Below are positions 31,930 to 61,135 of a DNA stretch of 64,000 nucleotides, in pieces. Each line of letters starts with the position of its first letter. The stretch's first letter is position 1. The position numbers and the translations under genes were made by a program. A model generated the notes under the pieces. That model had not been told where the DNA came from and made no database searches. It saw only the letters and a list, made by a program, of their open reading frames with translations. Source of the DNA: Burkholderiales bacterium (GTDB lineage: Bacteria; Pseudomonadota; Gammaproteobacteria; Burkholderiales; SG8-41); NCBI GenBank assembly GCA_035649495.1, contig DASRJL010000211.1:7713-71712 (forward strand), in the 5' to 3' direction.

Positions 31930-32118
31930 ATGCCCAACGGCGACGCGCAGGGTTACAAGACCTACATGTGCCTTATCTGCGGTTTCGTCTACAGCGAAGC
32001 GGCGGGGCTGCCCGACGAAGGCATCGCGCCGGGAACCCGCTGGCAGGACATCCCGATGAACTGGACCTGCCCCGAGTGCGGCGCGCGCAAGGAAGACTTC
32101 GAGATGGTGGAGGTATGA
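31930..32118 (+). CDS. rubA: rubredoxin
   Basis: 62 aa with two CxxC pairs (CLICG, CPECG) and the conserved YxC...GxxPGTxF/W..P..WxCPxCG pattern. Possible promoter TTGGTC-18-TAGAAT at 31872..31901. Confidence 0.9.
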
Positions 32119-32210
32119 AGTTTTGAGTTTTGAGTGTTTAGTTTTGAGTTACCCTTAACACTCCATCGCGCCCACCGGCACTCAAAACTCAAAATTCAAC
32201 ACTCAACACT
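32118..32210 (+). repeat. heptanucleotide tandem-repeat palindromic element (TTGAGTT-type)
   Basis: Units TGAAGTT TTGAGTT TTGAGTG TTTAGTT TTGAGTT begin at the rubredoxin stop. The opposing arm CTCAAAACTCAAAATTCAACACTCAACACT lies at 32180..32210. Confidence 0.85.
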
Positions 32211-32219
32211 GGGAAGCGT

Positions 32220-32603
32220 ATGCGTATATTGCACACCATGCTCCGCGTCGGCGCGCTGCAGCGCTCGATCGATTTCTACACCCAGGTGCTGGGTATGAAG
32301 CTCCTGCGCACCACCGACCGCCCGGAGCAGAAGTACACGCTCGCTTTTGTCGGCTACGACAGCGAGGAGCGCTCCGCGGTGCTCGAGCTCACCTACAACT
32401 ACGGCGTCGACCGGTACGATATGGGAGGCGCCTACGGCCACGTTGCGATAGCCATCCCCGACGTGAAAGCCGCATGCGATCGCGTGCGCGCAGCGGGTGG
32501 CAAAGTGACGCGCGAGCCCGGCCCGGTAAAGGGCGGCACGTCCGTCATCGCTTTCGTCGAAGACCCCGACGGCTACAAGATCGAGTTCATCCAGAGGGAT
32601 TAG
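32220..32603 (+). CDS. gloA: lactoylglutathione lyase (glyoxalase I)
   Basis: 127 aa starting [11 protein letters not shown]...SIDFYT..LGM, with full collinearity to GloA. Confidence 0.93.
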
Positions 32604-32631
32604 GTCCGCAGCCGCCCTTTCGTCGCTGCGG

Positions 32632-58537: not shown

Positions 58538-59242
58538 TTATTCACCCAGGTAGGCCCGTCTGACGTCGGCGTTGGCAAGCAGGCGCGGCGCCGTATCGGC
58601 GAGCGTGATGGTCCCGCTCTCCATGACGTAGCCGCGATCGCAGGTCTCGAGCGCGAGCTTCGCGTTCTGTTCCACCAGCAGCAAGGTCACACCCTCCCGC
58701 GCAACGACGCGGATCGTTTCGAAAATCTTCTGCACCATGAGCGGCGCGAGTCCCATGCTCGGTTCGTCCAACAGCAGCAACTGCGGCCGGCTCATCAGCG
58801 CGCGCCCGATCGCGAGCATCTGCTGCTCACCGCCCGACAGCGTGCCCGCGCGCTGGCGGCGGCGTTCGGCGAGCCGGGGAAATACCGCATAGATGCGGTC
58901 GAAATCGGCGGCGACCTGAGCGCGATCGCCACGGCTGTACGCGCCCATGTGGAGGTTCTCCTCTACCGTCAGAAGCCCGAACACGCCCCGGCCTTCGGGC
59001 ACCAGCGCCAGCCCCCGGCGCACCAGCTCGAAAGCCGGGCGCCCGGTGATCTCCGTGCCATTATAGTGGATGCGGCCCGCAACTGGTTTAAGAAGCCCCA
59101 CTAAGGTCTTCAAAGTGGTGGTTTTTCCGGCTCCGTTTGTCCCGATAAGTGTCACAAGTTCACCATTTTTCACGTCGAGATCTATGCCCTTCACGGCCTT
59201 GATCCCGCCATACGAAACGGTAAGCCCCCTGACCTCAAGCAA
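58538..59242 (-). CDS. livF: branched-chain amino acid ABC transporter ATP-binding protein LivF
   Basis: 234 aa with Walker A GTNGAGKTT, signature LSGGEQQML and Walker B LLLLDEP. Confidence 0.9.
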   Translation of the reverse strand: MLEVRGLTVSYGGIKAVKGIDLDVKNGELVTLIGTNGAGKTTTLKTLVGLLKPVAGRIHYNGTEITGRPAFELVRRGLALVPEGRGVFGLLTVEENLHMGAYSRGDRAQVAADFDRIYAVFPRLAERRRQRAGTLSGGEQQMLAIGRALMSRPQLLLLDEPSMGLAPLMVQKIFETIRVVAREGVTLLLVEQNAKLALETCDRGYVMESGTITLADTAPRLLANADVRRAYLGE

Positions 59243-60023
59243 GGGCGCCTCCCAGGTAGGCGGCGATGACGGCGGGATCGCTCCGCACCTCGGCCGGCGG
59301 GCCCTCGGCGATCTTCCTCCCGTAATCGAGGACGGCGACGCGGTCGCACAAACCCATGACGAGCCGCACGTCGTGCTCGATCAGGAGCAGCGTCGTGCCG
59401 TCCGCGCGGATTTTTTCGAGCAGGCGCTTCAGCTCTACGGTTTCGGTTGCGTTCATTCCCGCAGCGGGCTCGTCGAGCGCGAGGAGCAGGGGCTCGGTCG
59501 CAAGGGCACGGGCAAGCTCGAGCCGCCGCTGATCGCCGTAGGGCAGCGCACGGGCGAGCTCGCCGGCGCGGCGGGTTATGCCGACATAGTCGAGAAGCCG
59601 GCGCGCGTGGTCGGCAATCGCGGCTTCCTCGGCGCGCGTCGCCGCGCCCCGCGCGATGGCGCCTATCACCCCCGCCCGCGTGCGCACGTGCCTGCCGACC
59701 ATGACGTTCTCGAGCGCGGTCATGTTGGCGAAGAGGCGGATGTTCTGGAAGGTGCGGGCGATGCCGTTTGCGGCGACTTCGTGCGGCTTGAGACCGGTCA
59801 GGCGCGCGCCGCCGAAGTGGAACTCGCCGCTATCGGGAGCGTAGAGGCCCGTCAGCACGTTGAAGAGCGTGGTCTTGCCGGCGCCGTTGGGGCCGATCAG
59901 CCCGAAGATCTCCCCGCGCCTCACCGCGATCGAGACTTCGGAGAGCGCGCTCAATCCGCCGAAGCCCTTGCTGATTCCAACGGCCTCGAGCAGCTTTCCG
60001 CCTGATGTCTGCGGCGCGTTCAT
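59235..60023 (-). CDS. livG: branched-chain amino acid ABC transporter ATP-binding protein LivG
   Basis: True start MNAPQTSGGKLLEAVGISKGFGG, with GPNGAGKTT and LALDEPAAG. ATG overlaps the livM TGA. The track ORF to 61109 is spurious. Confidence 0.9.
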   Translation of the reverse strand: MNAPQTSGGKLLEAVGISKGFGGLSALSEVSIAVRRGEIFGLIGPNGAGKTTLFNVLTGLYAPDSGEFHFGGARLTGLKPHEVAANGIARTFQNIRLFANMTALENVMVGRHVRTRAGVIGAIARGAATRAEEAAIADHARRLLDYVGITRRAGELARALPYGDQRRLELARALATEPLLLALDEPAAGMNATETVELKRLLEKIRADGTTLLLIEHDVRLVMGLCDRVAVLDYGRKIAEGPPAEVRSDPAVIAAYLGGALA

Positions 60024-61120
60024 CCGCCCTTTCCGGCCGCGGTGTCGGGCGAGGTCGACAGCTCCCGGCGGCGCGTCGCGGACGGCCACAGCCCCGAGGG
60101 CCGCAGCAGCATGACCAGGATCAGCGCCAACCCGAATACGAGGAGCCGCAGATCCGTCGGGTCCCGCAGCACCTTGCCGAAGAGAAGCTGCTGGAGCGGC
60201 CCCAGGTAGCGCAGCGCTTCGGGCAGCACGACCAGCAGTACCGCGCCGAGCACCACGCCGGGGATGTGACCCATGCCGCCCAGGACCACCATGCACAGGA
60301 TCATGATCGATTCGATCAGGGTAAAGCTCTCGGGGCTCACGAAACCCTGGAACCCCGCGAACAGGCCCCCCGAAACGCCGCCGAAGCTCGCGCCCATGGC
60401 GAACGCGAGGAGCTTCACGTTTCGCGTGTTGATTCCCATCGCGGCCGCCGCCACTTCGTCCTCGCGTATCGCCACCCAGGCCCGGCCAATCCGCGAATTC
60501 TCCAGGCGTATCGAGACGAACACGACCGCGAGCGTCAGCGCGAGGAACAGGTAGTAATAGTTGTATACCGGCGGAAAGCCGAGACCCAGCGCGGTGTGCG
60601 TCTGCGCGAGCGAGAAGCTCCCCAGCCGGATGGGATCGATCAGGTTGATGCCCTGCGGTCCATTGGTGATATTGACCGGCGCGTTCAGGTTCACCAGGAA
60701 GATGCGGACGATCTCCCCGAAGCCGAGCGTGACGATCGCGAGGTAGTCCCCGCGCAGCCGCAGGGTGGGCGCGCCGAGCAGCACGCCGAACACGCAGGCG
60801 ACGCCCGCGCCCAGCGGCAGCAGCAGCCAGAACGGCAGGTGCAGCCCGAACTGGGGCGAGGCGAGGAGGGCGTAGAAGTACGCCCCGACCGCGAAGAAGG
60901 CGACGTAGCCCAGATCGAGCAGGCCGGCGTAGCCCACCACGATGTTCAGGCCCAGCGCGAGCATGATGTAGAGCAGGACGAACGCCGCGATACGTACCCA
61001 CGCCCGGCCGAACGCCCAGTCGGCGAAGAACGGCAGCGCCAGCAGCAGGACCGCCAGCGCGGCGAACGCGATCCACGCGACCCTCGGGTCGCGGCGGAGT
61101 TTTCCCCACTCACCAATCAC
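60020..61120 (-). CDS. livM: branched-chain amino acid ABC transporter permease LivM
   Basis: 366 aa polytopic membrane protein of the LivM type. GTG start lies inside a heptamer array. Confidence 0.88.
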   Translation of the reverse strand: MIGEWGKLRRDPRVAWIAFAALAVLLLALPFFADWAFGRAWVRIAAFVLLYIMLALGLNIVVGYAGLLDLGYVAFFAVGAYFYALLASPQFGLHLPFWLLLPLGAGVACVFGVLLGAPTLRLRGDYLAIVTLGFGEIVRIFLVNLNAPVNITNGPQGINLIDPIRLGSFSLAQTHTALGLGFPPVYNYYYLFLALTLAVVFVSIRLENSRIGRAWVAIREDEVAAAAMGINTRNVKLLAFAMGASFGGVSGGLFAGFQGFVSPESFTLIESIMILCMVVLGGMGHIPGVVLGAVLLVVLPEALRYLGPLQQLLFGKVLRDPTDLRLLVFGLALILVMLLRPSGLWPSATRRRELSTSPDTAAGKGG

Positions 61121-61135
61121 GAATCACCAATCACG
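61107..61135 (-). repeat. heptanucleotide tandem repeat (GTGATTS-type) at livH-livM junction
   Basis: The minus strand reads CGTGATT GGTGATT CGTGATT GGTGAGT. Occupies the 18-nt livH-livM spacer and the livM start. Confidence 0.8.

What the first reader, a model, noticed from the sequence alone, without database searches (positions are those of the whole stretch)
32118..61135. Family of low-GC tandem heptanucleotide arrays at seven gene junctions
Seven short noncoding junctions in a genome that is otherwise very GC-rich consist of 3-5 tandem 7-nt units. They are TTGAGTT-type (32118..32210 and 35536..35640), GTGAATS-type (45113..45176), AAATCCC/TTTGGAT-type (48943..49030), GTGACCR-type (49953..49983 and 52006..52034) and GTGATTS-type (61107..61135). 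Four are internally palindromic, with a G/T-rich arm facing an A/C-rich arm, so the RNA or DNA could form long imperfect hairpins. Almost every G/T-arm unit contains [G/T]TGA. Because 7 is not a multiple of 3, most arrays carry TGA in all three frames (checked for 45114/45121/45128, 49954/49961/49968, the 49004..49033 arm, and the 52006 and 61107 arrays). The 32118 left arm covers only two frames. Three arrays begin at the stop codon of the upstream gene, and three overlap the start codon of the downstream gene. None occurs in the first 32 kb of the window. Tandem heptamers of this kind are known as STRR repeats in heterocystous cyanobacteria, and REP/BIME hairpins are known in enterics. I do not recognise this as a named proteobacterial family.
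Basis: partly seen in the sequence, partly recalled or inferred. Interest (0 to 1): 0.7.

Follow-up and report, generated by a model that had tools for sequence, protein, structure and literature searches.

The report
Heptamer-repeat hairpins at gene junctions
Short runs of a repeated 7-base unit, mostly paired as mirror-image arms that can fold into long hairpins, sit between neighbouring genes of an uncultured soil betaproteobacterium; they are real and non-random, but they belong to a class already seen in Xanthomonas, Geobacter, cyanobacteria and sulfur bacteria, whose function is still unknown.

Summary
Seven junctions between co-directional housekeeping genes carry period-7 arrays: 7 arrays found against 0.39 expected from shuffles. 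Four are two-armed and three of those fold into 28-42-bp imperfect hairpins. Stop codons cover all three frames in all but one G/T arm.

The arrays are not an unrecognised family. The same architecture is published for Xanthomonas/Nostoc GGGNATC repeats, Geobacter paired heptamer sites, Beggiatoaceae TAACTGA repeats and cyanobacterial STRR.

New here:
- Arrays at different loci share 19-20-nt identical stretches, so they are copied rather than grown independently.
- They are invariant among 99.7-99.96 % identical strains.
- Among relatives with 71-89 % identical PurH they are gained, lost, re-sized and change unit. Some relatives have period 8-10 arrays.
- (GTGANNN)n arrays occur in at least 120 metagenome and at least 120 viral stretches.
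- In those stretches a G-arm-then-C-arm order dominates (about 16:1 and 18:1).
- GT is the most conserved part of the unit.

They are not canonical intrinsic terminators, and nothing suggests phase-variation switches.

My best guess (confidence 0.4) is a dispersed intergenic repeat that acts as operon punctuation. It would give an RNA hairpin that is a plausible RNase III or stability element, plus frame-independent stop, GTG start and GGUGA signals. Function is inferred, not shown.

The parts
32119..32150 (+). A1 G/T arm, (AGTTTTG)x4.6. It begins 1 nt after the rubredoxin stop TGA at 32116-32118.
   Evidence: TRF; sequence; stops by frame; rubredoxin Pfam hit.
32180..32210 (+). A1 A/C arm, (ACTCAAA)x4.4. 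It ends 9 nt before the gloA ATG at 32220 and pairs with 32119-32150 (32 pairs, -29.5 kcal/mol, z -3.7).
35530..35643 (-). A2, a two-armed TTGAGTT-type element between the surA stop (35652-35654) and the pdxA start (35521). The arms are 35530-35565 and 35608-35643. On the sense (-) strand the G/T arm comes first.
   Evidence: inverted repeat I9, 78 % complementary; fold -38.6 kcal/mol, z -4.2; gene calls. The arms are 92-96 % identical to the A1 arms (I19 and D17). A 19-nt identical stretch is shared with A1.
45113..45176 (+). A3, a two-armed GTGAATS element that fills the fis-purH spacer. The G arm is 45113-45142 and starts on the last base of the fis TAG. The C arm is 45147-45176 and ends 4 nt before the purH ATG at 45181.
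   Evidence: Fold: 28 pairs, -36.7 kcal/mol, z -8.7. The hairpin is retained in L084, L087 and L004, with 3 compensatory pairs, and is broken in L085.
48943..49036 (+). A4, a degenerate two-armed element in the reverse order. The A/C arm (AAATCCC-like) is 48943-48975. The G/T arm is 49000-49036 and is related to the TTGAGTT type. The hemF ATG is at 49042.
   Evidence: D3 family (72 % to A1); TGA in three frames after extension to 49036.
49951..49983 (+). A5, a single-arm (GTGACCR) array. Its first TGA is the hemF stop codon (49954-49956).
   Evidence: A 20-nt stretch is identical to A6.
52006..52034 (-). A6, a single-arm (GTGACCR)x4 array on the sense (-) strand. It contains the GTG start of tctC at 52020, preceded by GGTGA.
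61106..61135 (-). A7, a single-arm (GTGATTS)x4 array on the sense (-) strand. It lies 4 nt after the livH stop TAA and contains the livM GTG start at 61120, preceded by GGTGAT.
5793..5819 (-). A period-10 single-arm array, (ATCTGTGTTC)x2.7, between priA and argS. The same unit forms a two-armed element between pepP and ubiH in relative L084.

Best explanation
The arrays are copies of a dispersed, fast-evolving class of intergenic short-tandem-repeat elements of the STRR / long-SSR type. They settle in the spacers between co-directional genes.

Shown:
- They are real and non-random.
- They are copied between nearby sites.
- They are stable on the strain time-scale but turn over between species.
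- The two-armed copies fold into 28-42-bp imperfect hairpins.
- The preferred order is G/T arm (GTGANNN, reading inward) followed by its complement.
- Array units are actually used as the stop codon (hemF) and as start codons (tctC, livM).

Inferred:
- In the polycistronic mRNA the element acts as operon punctuation.
- The first arm stops ribosomes in any frame.
- The long double-stranded hairpin is a substrate or barrier for RNases. RNase III-type processing or 3'-end protection is the likeliest role, by analogy with the heptamer-repeat hairpin of the Haemophilus hmw 5'-UTR.
- GGUGA(U)-N3-GUG in the G arm supplies a Shine-Dalgarno-like site plus a start codon in whatever frame the next gene needs.
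- Because the element brings its own stops and starts, insertion at a junction does little harm. That would explain why it persists and spreads there.
For: - Non-randomness and junction location.
- Hairpins. The fis-purH hairpin is kept in relatives down to 75 % PurH identity, with three compensatory pairs.
- Copying: A1 and A2 arms are 92-96 % identical, with a shared 19-mer that includes imperfect units. A5 and A6 share a 20-mer. In L085 the fis-purH left arm has been replaced by a 20-nt-identical copy of the array 1.6 kb away.
- Turnover: elements of 110-185 nt are present in L084, L085 and L087 at junctions where the window's genes overlap or are about 20 nt apart. Unit and period differ at orthologous junctions.
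- Stability: there is no copy-number change among strains 99.7-99.96 % identical.
- Polarity: the inverted partner lies downstream of the G arm about 16:1 in metagenome loci and 18:1 in viral loci.
- Coding signals. Starts that follow a G arm gain 5-7 kcal/mol of pairing to the 13-nt 16S tail through GGUGAU:AUCACC. Array-adjacent genes have weak core Shine-Dalgarno sites, -2.7 against -4.9 kcal/mol.
- Precedent: the (ATCTTTC)n arm of a long 5'-UTR hairpin is processed by RNase III in H. influenzae (PMC12721329).
Against: - There are no expression data, so every functional step is inferred.
- Sense-strand RNA is not consistently more stable than antisense. A3 favours sense; A1 and A2 favour antisense. 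The structure could therefore matter at DNA level, or not at all.
- In L085 the arms no longer pair, so the hairpin is dispensable at least there.
- Presence/absence differences among relatives show that most junctions work without an element.
- Single-arm arrays in metagenome loci show no strong orientation relative to the upstream gene, 19 against 12 with crude gene calls.
- Genes after a C arm (purH, gloA, pdxA) have no Shine-Dalgarno site and no array-borne start, so the 'supplies a start' idea covers only some copies.
- The 16S tail sequence is assumed, not read from this genome.
Confidence: 0.4

Rival explanations
1. The arrays are neutral by-products. Replication slippage with a 7-nt bias (the Mrazek 2007 proposal), together with template switching or gene conversion, creates arrays and inverted copies. 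These survive only where they do no harm, in spacers between co-directional genes. They have no function.
For: - Arrays are gained, lost and change unit at orthologous junctions among relatives. Many junctions have none.
- The arms are unpaired in L085.
- Same-type arrays cluster within 1.6-3.4 kb, as expected for local template switching.
- The slippage proposal is quoted.
Against: - The fis-purH element is retained, with pairing, down to 75 % PurH identity.
- The strong G-then-C polarity, about 16:1 and 18:1, is not predicted by hairpin-neutral copying.
- Conservation within units is position-specific: GT 1-3 % mismatches against 7-15 % elsewhere, p = 2e-9.
- GTGA occurs in 46 % of independent heptamer arrays against 5 % expected.
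- There is no length polymorphism among close strains.
Confidence: 0.3
2. The arrays would be three-frame translational stop pads that catch read-through or frameshifted ribosomes in a GC-rich genome where chance stops are rare.
For: - Stops occur in all three frames in six of seven G/T arms.
- TGA is present in 67 % of independent heptamer arrays against 22 % expected.
- With the G arm first on both strands, whichever strand is read meets the stop-rich arm first.
- Arrays commonly begin within 10 nt of a stop codon.
Against: - About 25 % of heptamer arrays have no stop.
- Relatives use stop-free units (GTGGCTC, CGCAGAGA) and a period-9 unit, which covers one frame only, at the same kind of junction.
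- The G and A of TGA vary as much as the tail positions, while GT does not vary.
- The preference for G before TGA (46 %, against 8-13 % for A, C or T) is unexplained by stop function.
- Three units would be enough, and the complementary arm is not needed.
Confidence: 0.15
3. The arrays are binding-site arrays for an oligomeric nucleic-acid-binding protein that reads a short core (GT or GTGA / UGA) every 7 nt. One version is a ring-shaped RNA-binding regulator in the manner of HutP, which binds three NAG triplets with 4-nt spacers (my own knowledge), or TRAP. Another version is a DNA-binding 'global regulator', as proposed for the Geobacter sites.
For: - The core is conserved and the tail is free, both within and between arrays, with fixed 7-nt spacing and typically 3-5 units.
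- Mixed arrays keep GTGA while NNN changes, for example L220, L222, L231 and L234.
- A viral contig carries one identical array with a conserved flank upstream of successive genes (L259).
- The Geobacter authors interpreted their paired sites this way.
Against: - No candidate protein has been identified.
- Arrays occur in contigs with GC from 0.25 to 0.72 and in viral contigs, so a single dedicated factor would have to be nearly universal.
- Periods 8-10 occur in the same positions.
- In the two-armed copies pairing would hide single-stranded sites.
Confidence: 0.15
4. The two-armed elements are intrinsic (bidirectional) transcription terminators.
For: In several GC-rich metagenome loci and in viral locus L298, the C arm is followed by a T-rich tail and the G arm is preceded by an A-rich stretch, for example L096, L115, L150 and L167, and L298.
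Against: - In the window none of the arrays is picked up by the terminator scan.
- None is followed by a T run. A3 ends 4 nt and A1 ends 9 nt before the next start codon.
- All seven lie inside apparent operons such as surA-pdxA, dus-fis-purH-purD and livHMGF.
Confidence: 0.05
5. The arrays are phase-variable contingency loci that switch flanking genes through changes in copy number.
For: Heptamer SSRs do this at the hmw genes of H. influenzae. One unit is gained in the right arm of L084.
Against: - Three strains from independent metagenomes that are 99.7-99.96 % identical show no length change in the arrays covered (A2-A6 in two contigs, A3-A5 in the third), only one SNP.
- The arrays are short (3-5 units) and imperfect.
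- The flanking genes are housekeeping genes.
Confidence: 0.02

Closest known systems
GGGNATC / GGGGA(C/T)T heptameric repeats of Xanthomonas and Nostoc (Rehm et al. 2015, PMC4692102)
   Same: - Tandem 7-nt units with a preference for about 4 copies.
- Over-represented in non-coding DNA between aligned ORFs.
- The G-rich strand is in sense within 0-50 bp of, or overlapping, the stop codon. The C-rich strand is in sense just before the start.
- There are 70-75 convergent pairs per genome that could form stem-loops.
- Position is kept between species while length and sequence vary.
- Flanking genes are housekeeping genes.
- Function is unresolved.
   Different: Those units carry G3-4 tracts and form G-quadruplexes in vitro. 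The window's units (TTGAGTT, GTGAATS, GTGACCR, GTGATTS) have no G tracts, apart from a GGG-containing unit in A4. They carry TGA instead.
Cyanobacterial STRR heptanucleotide repeats (CCCCAGT, TTGGTCA, CAACAGT; recalled from my own knowledge, Mazel et al. 1990)
   Same: Tandem heptamers in intergenic DNA. GTGACCA is one substitution away from the reverse complement of TTGGTCA. ATGACCA arrays turn up in the same metagenome scan.
   Different: STRR were defined in heterocystous cyanobacteria. This is a GC-rich betaproteobacterium with other units and mostly two-armed copies.
Paired tandem-repeat 'global regulator binding sites' of Geobacter metallireducens (Aklujkar et al. 2009, PMC2700814)
   Same: - Five tandem heptamers (MTYCTGA) or three tandem 8-9-mers (TCTCCGTS[Y]).
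- They occur as pairs on opposite strands with variable spacing, for example between proB and proA.
- They form multicopy families.
- L084 carries a TCTCCGCG-type period-8 pair.
   Different: They were interpreted as IHF/HU-type protein binding sites, without a test. The unit sequences and the lineage differ.
TAACTGA direct repeats of marine Beggiatoaceae (MacGregor 2015, PMC4679880)
   Same: - Heptamer with a CTGA core, 2-6 copies.
- Intergenic and close to start codons.
[quoted passage not shown]
- A translational role was proposed.
   Different: A single unit sequence is used genome-wide. Almost all are direct arrays, with one inverted pair among 170.
hmw 5'-UTR (ATCTTTC)n hairpin of Haemophilus influenzae (PMC12721329)
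   Same: A heptamer array forms one arm of a long RNA hairpin. That hairpin is experimentally shown to be cut by RNase III, with an effect on expression.
   Different: It is a phase-variable 5'-UTR with 11 or more repeats in natural strains, of which 10 lie in the hairpin's left arm, in front of an adhesin gene. The other arm is a G-rich non-repeat. The window's arrays are short, stable and intercistronic.
REP / BIME elements (RAYT-associated)
   Same: Dispersed intergenic palindromic DNA, often in inverted pairs with variable linkers. Known roles include mRNA stabilisation and translation effects near stop codons (my own knowledge; background titles).
   Different: A REP is itself a 20-40-nt palindrome with a 5' GT(A/G)G. 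Here each arm is a direct tandem array and only the pair is palindromic. No RAYT gene lies in the window.

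Membership tests
Intergenic heptanucleotide long SSR / STRR-like arrays | Head-to-tail copies of a 7-nt unit, at least 3 copies, longer than chance allows | tested here: met
   TRF. Seven arrays against a shuffle mean of 0.39 and a maximum of 2.
Intergenic heptanucleotide long SSR / STRR-like arrays | Located in non-coding DNA | tested here: met
   All arrays lie in spacers or overlap only a stop or start codon. A 7-nt indel in L084 breaks the annotated N-terminal extension of purH, which shows that stretch is non-coding.
Intergenic heptanucleotide long SSR / STRR-like arrays | Unit number differs between related genomes | tested here: met
   The L084 right arm has 5 units against 4 in the window. 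Elements are present or absent, and change unit, among relatives with 71-89 % PurH identity. There is no change among 99.7-99.96 % identical strains.
Cyanobacterial STRR in the strict sense | Heterocystous cyanobacterial genome, units CCCCAGT / TTGGTCA / CAACAGT | tested here: not met
   The window is betaproteobacterial: a Burkholderia-type anti-hemB sRNA and nearest PurH relatives labelled Betaproteobacteria or Burkholderiales. The units differ.
Xanthomonas/Nostoc G4-forming GGGNATC repeats | About 4 units between aligned ORFs, G-rich strand sense after the stop, frequent convergent pairs | tested here: met
   Seven of seven arrays lie between co-directional genes with 3-5 units. A1-A3 have the G arm first. 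Class-wide polarity is about 16:1 and 18:1.
Xanthomonas/Nostoc G4-forming GGGNATC repeats | Four or more G3+ tracts able to form a G-quadruplex | tested here: not met
   The units TTGAGTT, GTGAATS, GTGACCR and GTGATTS contain no GGG. Only A4 has a GGG-containing unit.
REP / BIME | Each repeat is a 20-40-nt imperfect palindrome with a conserved 5' GT(A/G)G | tested here: not met
   Each arm is a direct tandem array, not a palindrome. No conserved GTAG or GTGG tetranucleotide was seen flanking the window's arms on reading them.
REP / BIME | Association with a RAYT (Y1 transposase) gene | tested here: inconclusive
   None of the 40 window ORFs scanned against Pfam gave a transposase or Y1_Tnp match, and none is among the precomputed Pfam annotations of 35182-56752. 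The rest of the genome is not available.
Phase-variable contingency SSR | Length polymorphism among close strains; location in the promoter or 5' coding region of surface or virulence genes | tested here: not met
   No length change among three near-identical metagenome contigs. The flanking genes are housekeeping genes.
Intrinsic terminator | GC-rich stem followed by a U tract | tested here: not met
   No array was reported by the terminator scan. The stems are AT-rich and no T run follows.
RNase III-processed heptamer-repeat hairpin (hmw type) | The heptamer array forms an arm of a long (about 20 bp or more) RNA duplex | tested here: met
   Predicted stems of 28-42 pairs for A1-A3. The consensus fold is retained in orthologues.
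RNase III-processed heptamer-repeat hairpin (hmw type) | Cleavage by RNase III with an effect on expression | not testable with these tools
   This needs RNA end mapping or an rnc mutant.
HutP/TRAP-type triplet-repeat RNA binding site | Three or more identical triplets at fixed spacing (HutP: NAG-N4) and a cognate ring-shaped protein | tested here: inconclusive
   The spacing criterion is formally met: UGA or GU every 7 nt for 3-5 units. No cognate protein was searched for or identified.

The most novel reading that the evidence does not exclude
(GTGANNN)n arrays, usually as inward-facing convergent pairs, may be one cross-phylum element class found in bacteria and their viruses. Its invariant GT(GA) core at a strict 7-nt spacing would be read by a common cellular machine or an unidentified factor.

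Two examples of what that could mean:
- A ribosome termination-reinitiation relay. Each GUGA is an overlapping start/stop, and GGUGA-N3-GUG is a Shine-Dalgarno site plus a start in every frame.
- A dedicated single-strand-binding protein or transposase.

Either would finally give a function to the heptanucleotide repeats that have gone unexplained since STRR were described.
Probability: 0.2. Interest if true: 0.75.

Novelty: new variant of a known kind. Interest (0 to 1): 0.5.

Why it matters
Heptanucleotide tandem repeats are the most over-represented long simple repeats in many bacterial genomes. They have had no accepted function since they were first noticed (STRR, 1990; Mrazek, 2007).

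This window and its relatives give a compact comparative series in which one junction, fis-purH, keeps a heptamer hairpin while the unit sequence, the copy number and even a whole arm are exchanged.

The wider scans add three constraints that any explanation must meet:
- an invariant GT(GA) core with a free 3-nt tail;
- a roughly 16-18:1 preference for the G arm preceding its complement;
- occurrence in viral contigs as well as cellular ones.

If the elements do act as frame-independent stop/start and RNA-processing punctuation, they would be a general, portable way of insulating genes within operons. They would also be a source of mis-annotated start codons, as seen for purH.

Tried and rejected
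- Rfam at gathering threshold found only anti-hemB at 28021-28113 and nothing at the arrays. No tRNA or tmRNA was found.
- The terminator/promoter scan found nothing at the arrays.
- I tested whether G-U pairs make the sense RNA more stable than the antisense, which would mark RNA-level selection. The result is inconsistent: A3 yes, A1 and A2 the reverse.
- I tested orientation of single-arm arrays relative to the upstream gene in metagenome loci. It gave 19 against 12, no clear bias, and my ORF-based gene calls are crude.
- My first 'inverted partner' filter was too lax in GC-rich DNA. I replaced it with an upstream-versus-downstream comparison.
- I looked for a target-site duplication. Only L085 shows ATGAAG on both sides of its purH-purD element. 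L084, L087 and L004 show none, so there is no evidence for cut-and-paste transposition.
- My first simple gene caller mis-called shadow ORFs. I corrected the map with public gene calls and Pfam.
- The Mrazek 2007 paper is not in the library, so I cite it only as summarised by others. No post-2016 paper explaining heptamer arrays was found.
- P0004 had no DNA available.
- The closest species-level genome has only 75-76 % PurH identity, so no whole-genome census was possible.

Full report
**Observation.** That spacer still has lag 7 as its best autocorrelation lag. A mechanical scan finds seven period-7 arrays in the window. It finds none of period 8, 10 or 11 and two of period 9. One hundred dinucleotide-preserving block shuffles give a mean of 0.39 and a maximum of 2 for period 7. 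I label the arrays A1 to A7:

| Label | Coordinates |
|---|---|
| A1 | 32119-32210 |
| A2 | 35530-35643 |
| A3 | 45113-45176 |
| A4 | 48943-49036 |
| A5 | 49951-49983 |
| A6 | 52006-52034 |
| A7 | 61106-61135 |

**Organism.** The window comes from an uncultured betaproteobacterium.
- It carries a Burkholderia-type anti-hemB sRNA.
- Its PurH is identical to that of three soil or rhizosphere metagenome contigs.
- It is only 75-76 % identical to the nearest species representative.

**Gene context.** Public gene calls and Pfam give a complete map of housekeeping genes with no transposase. All seven arrays lie between co-directional genes:
- rubredoxin>gloA
- surA>pdxA
- fis>purH
- unknown>hemF
- hemF>tctC
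- BNR>tctC
- livH>livM

**Anatomy.**
- A1, A2 and A3 are a G/T-rich arm followed by its complement. They fold into 28-42-pair imperfect hairpins of -29.5 to -38.6 kcal/mol, with z = -3.7 to -8.7.
- A4 has the arms in the opposite order.
- A5, A6 and A7 are single arms without significant structure.
- Stops cover all three frames in every G/T arm except the left arm of A1. The complementary arms have almost none.
- A1, A3 and A5 start at or on the upstream stop codon. The hemF stop is the first TGA of A5.
- The GTG start of tctC (52020) lies inside A6. The GTG start of livM lies inside A7, at 61120 rather than 61109.
- A third start overlap was not found.
- A period-10 array between priA and argS (5793-5819) is the only related feature in the first 32 kb.
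- None of the arrays looks like an intrinsic terminator. Rfam has no family for them.

**Time-scales.** Three contigs from independent metagenomes are 99.7-99.96 % identical to the window across 35182-56752. They show no length change in the arrays they cover (A2-A6 in two of them, A3-A5 in the third) and a single SNP. The arrays are therefore not hypermutable switches.

Relatives with 84-89 % identical PurH are L084, L085 and L087. In them:
- The fis-purH element is retained but modified.
  - L084 has one extra unit in the right arm.
  - L087 has substitutions in the right arm.
  - In L085 the whole left arm is now GTGACYN and no longer pairs with the shortened right arm.
- New two-armed elements of 110-185 nt occupy junctions that are empty in the window. 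Examples are purH-purD, where the window's genes overlap by one base, and in L084 also pepP-ubiH and the junction before pepP.
- The unknown-hemF junction carries a different unit in each genome: period 7 in the window, period 9 (CACAGAGAT) in L084 and period 10 (GCCGATCTAC) in L087.

More distant relatives (L004, L005, L008, L014; 70-76 % PurH identity) still have two-armed heptamer elements at one or both of the fis-purH and purH-purD junctions (both in L004 and L008). Their units are GTAAATS, GATTGAG, GTGAAWN and GTGAGGN, and L014 carries a period 9-10 element at purH-purD. A consensus fold of the fis-purH element keeps 28 pairs. Three of them have compensatory changes, all contributed by L004.

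About 70 other betaproteobacterial loci (1.3 Mb) contain no (GTGANNN)x3 at all.

**Copying.**
- The arms of A1 and A2, 3.4 kb apart, are 92-96 % identical over 26 nt. They share a 19-mer that includes imperfect units, while the loops are unrelated.
- A5 and A6, 2 kb apart, share a 20-mer with the same G/A alternation.
- The replaced left arm in L085 is 20-nt identical to the array 1.6 kb downstream.
- Control intergenic pairs share at most 13 nt.

The arrays are therefore propagated by copying, apparently over short distances, and not only by in-place slippage. I found no consistent target-site duplication.

- Many hits are two-armed.
- The inverted partner lies downstream of the G arm about 16:1 in the metagenome set and 18:1 in the viral set.
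- Mixed arrays keep GTGA while the last three bases change.
- Among 39 heptamer arrays found by periodicity alone, at least 250 nt away from the seed matches, 67 % contain TGA (22 % expected) and 46 % contain GTGA (5 % expected). About a quarter carry no stop codon.
- In 84 arrays not selected by a GTGA-requiring seed, the mismatch rate is 1.4 % and 3.1 % at G1 and T2. It is 10 % and 7 % at G3 and A4, and 9-15 % in the tail (core against tail p = 2e-9). Requiring a GTGA consensus gives a mild bias towards this result.
- Some viral contigs carry the same element, flank or loop included, before or after successive genes (L259, L243, L298).

**Coding signals.**
- Array-adjacent genes have weak core Shine-Dalgarno pairing, mean -2.7 against -4.9 kcal/mol.
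- The three starts that follow a G arm (hemF, tctC, livM) gain 5-7 kcal/mol when the canonical 13-nt 16S tail is used. This comes through GGUGAU:AUCACC pairing, at a spacing equivalent to an optimal Shine-Dalgarno site. The 16S tail sequence is assumed from general knowledge, not read from this genome.
- Genes that follow a C arm (purH, gloA, pdxA) have essentially no Shine-Dalgarno site.

**What is known.** The same architecture has been described before:
- Xanthomonas and Nostoc GGGNATC repeats: about 4 units, between aligned ORFs, G strand after the stop, 70-75 convergent pairs, function unresolved.
- Geobacter metallireducens paired opposite-strand sites of five MTYCTGA or three TCTCCGTS units.
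- Beggiatoaceae TAACTGA repeats.
- Burkholderia, as summarised from Mrazek 2007.
- Cyanobacterial STRR, from my own knowledge.

The only experimentally dissected heptamer-array hairpin I found is the H. influenzae hmw 5'-UTR, which RNase III cleaves.

**Interpretation.** The following are shown:
- a real, dispersed repeat class that is copied and turns over;
- residence at co-directional junctions;
- hairpin potential;
- strong arm polarity;
- a conserved GT(GA) core;
- use of array units as real stop and start codons.

The function is inferred. I commit, at confidence 0.4, to operon punctuation with three parts:
- a frame-independent stop;
- a long RNA duplex that serves as an RNase III or stability element;
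- in G-arm-proximal genes, a built-in GGUGA-N3-GUG initiation site.

These properties also make insertion harmless, which would explain the spread. The rivals are:

| Rival | Confidence |
|---|---|
| Neutral slippage and template-switch debris | 0.3 |
| Three-frame stop pads as the primary function | 0.15 |
| Binding arrays for a factor reading GT(GA) every 7 nt | 0.15 |
| Intrinsic terminators | 0.05 |
| Phase variation | 0.02 |

**Verdict.** This is a new variant of a known but unexplained kind. It is of moderate interest because it adds comparative constraints (core, polarity, copying, viral occurrence) to a long-standing open question, without resolving it.

Noticed in passing
window 1950-2022, 2023-2096 and 9405-9480: A separate G-rich repeat of about 60-70 nt occurs in three copies. 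Two are in tandem between an SDR gene and dsbA, and one lies upstream of hemE. The consensus is GGGGGGTGCGGGGGG..GGGAAG.CC..TCGGATT.TCAGGAAGGGGCCC..CCCCCTG. It is internally palindromic (GGGGG...CCCCC) and unrelated to the heptamer arrays.
   Followed up: partly
window 48916-48942: A perfect 11-bp GC-rich hairpin (AGCATCGCGCG-ggata-CGCGCGATGCT) lies 5 nt after the stop of the unknown gene 48050-48910 and directly before the A4 left arm. No T run follows it.
   Followed up: no
window 35521-35560 (- strand): The first canonical start of pdxA (GTG 35521) would give MTAGEPAGIGPD. The in-frame upstream codons read IPPIAV, like a normal PdxA N-terminus, but they contain no ATG, GTG or TTG and run into the A2 arm. 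This suggests a non-canonical start such as ATT, or coupling.
   Followed up: partly
window 45124-45180; P0001, P0005: Public gene calls start purH 19 codons too early, at an ATG inside array A3 (542-543 aa against 523 aa). The C arm has no stops, so the ORF stays open. A 7-nt indel in L084 breaks the extension, which shows it is not coding.
   Followed up: yes
window 28021-28113: An Rfam anti-hemB sRNA (RF02837, 76.8 bits) lies about 100 nt from the hemB start (hemB 26918-27925, - strand). This is a Burkholderia-type feature in an uncultured lineage.
   Followed up: no
window 59235-61109 (- strand): The long 624-aa ORF is an artefact. Its N-terminal 360 codons shadow the real livM (60020-61120). 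Only the C-terminal part (59235-60005) is a real gene, livG.
   Followed up: yes
L259 1766, 2491, 5113, 7342, 12262 (viral contig, GC 0.63): One identical element, TTC-CACCGATCACTGATCACCGATCAC-CCGGCACTT, recurs 10-60 nt upstream of the ATG of successive genes. It looks like a phage regulatory or promoter-like motif built on a heptamer array.
   Followed up: no
L298 331, 2255, 4067 (viral contig): Whole two-armed elements, including the loop (CAGTAAAGGCCAAAACTG), are repeated and are followed by a T-rich tail. In this contig they behave like dispersed terminator-like hairpins.
   Followed up: no
L075 16803-16899 and 18662-18828; L026 21059-21120: Other Burkholderiales loci carry much longer heptamer arrays of 9-25 units (GGCGCAT, GAAGCTC, CAAGGCT, GAAGGCT). 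These arrays have a different character from the short ones here.
   Followed up: no
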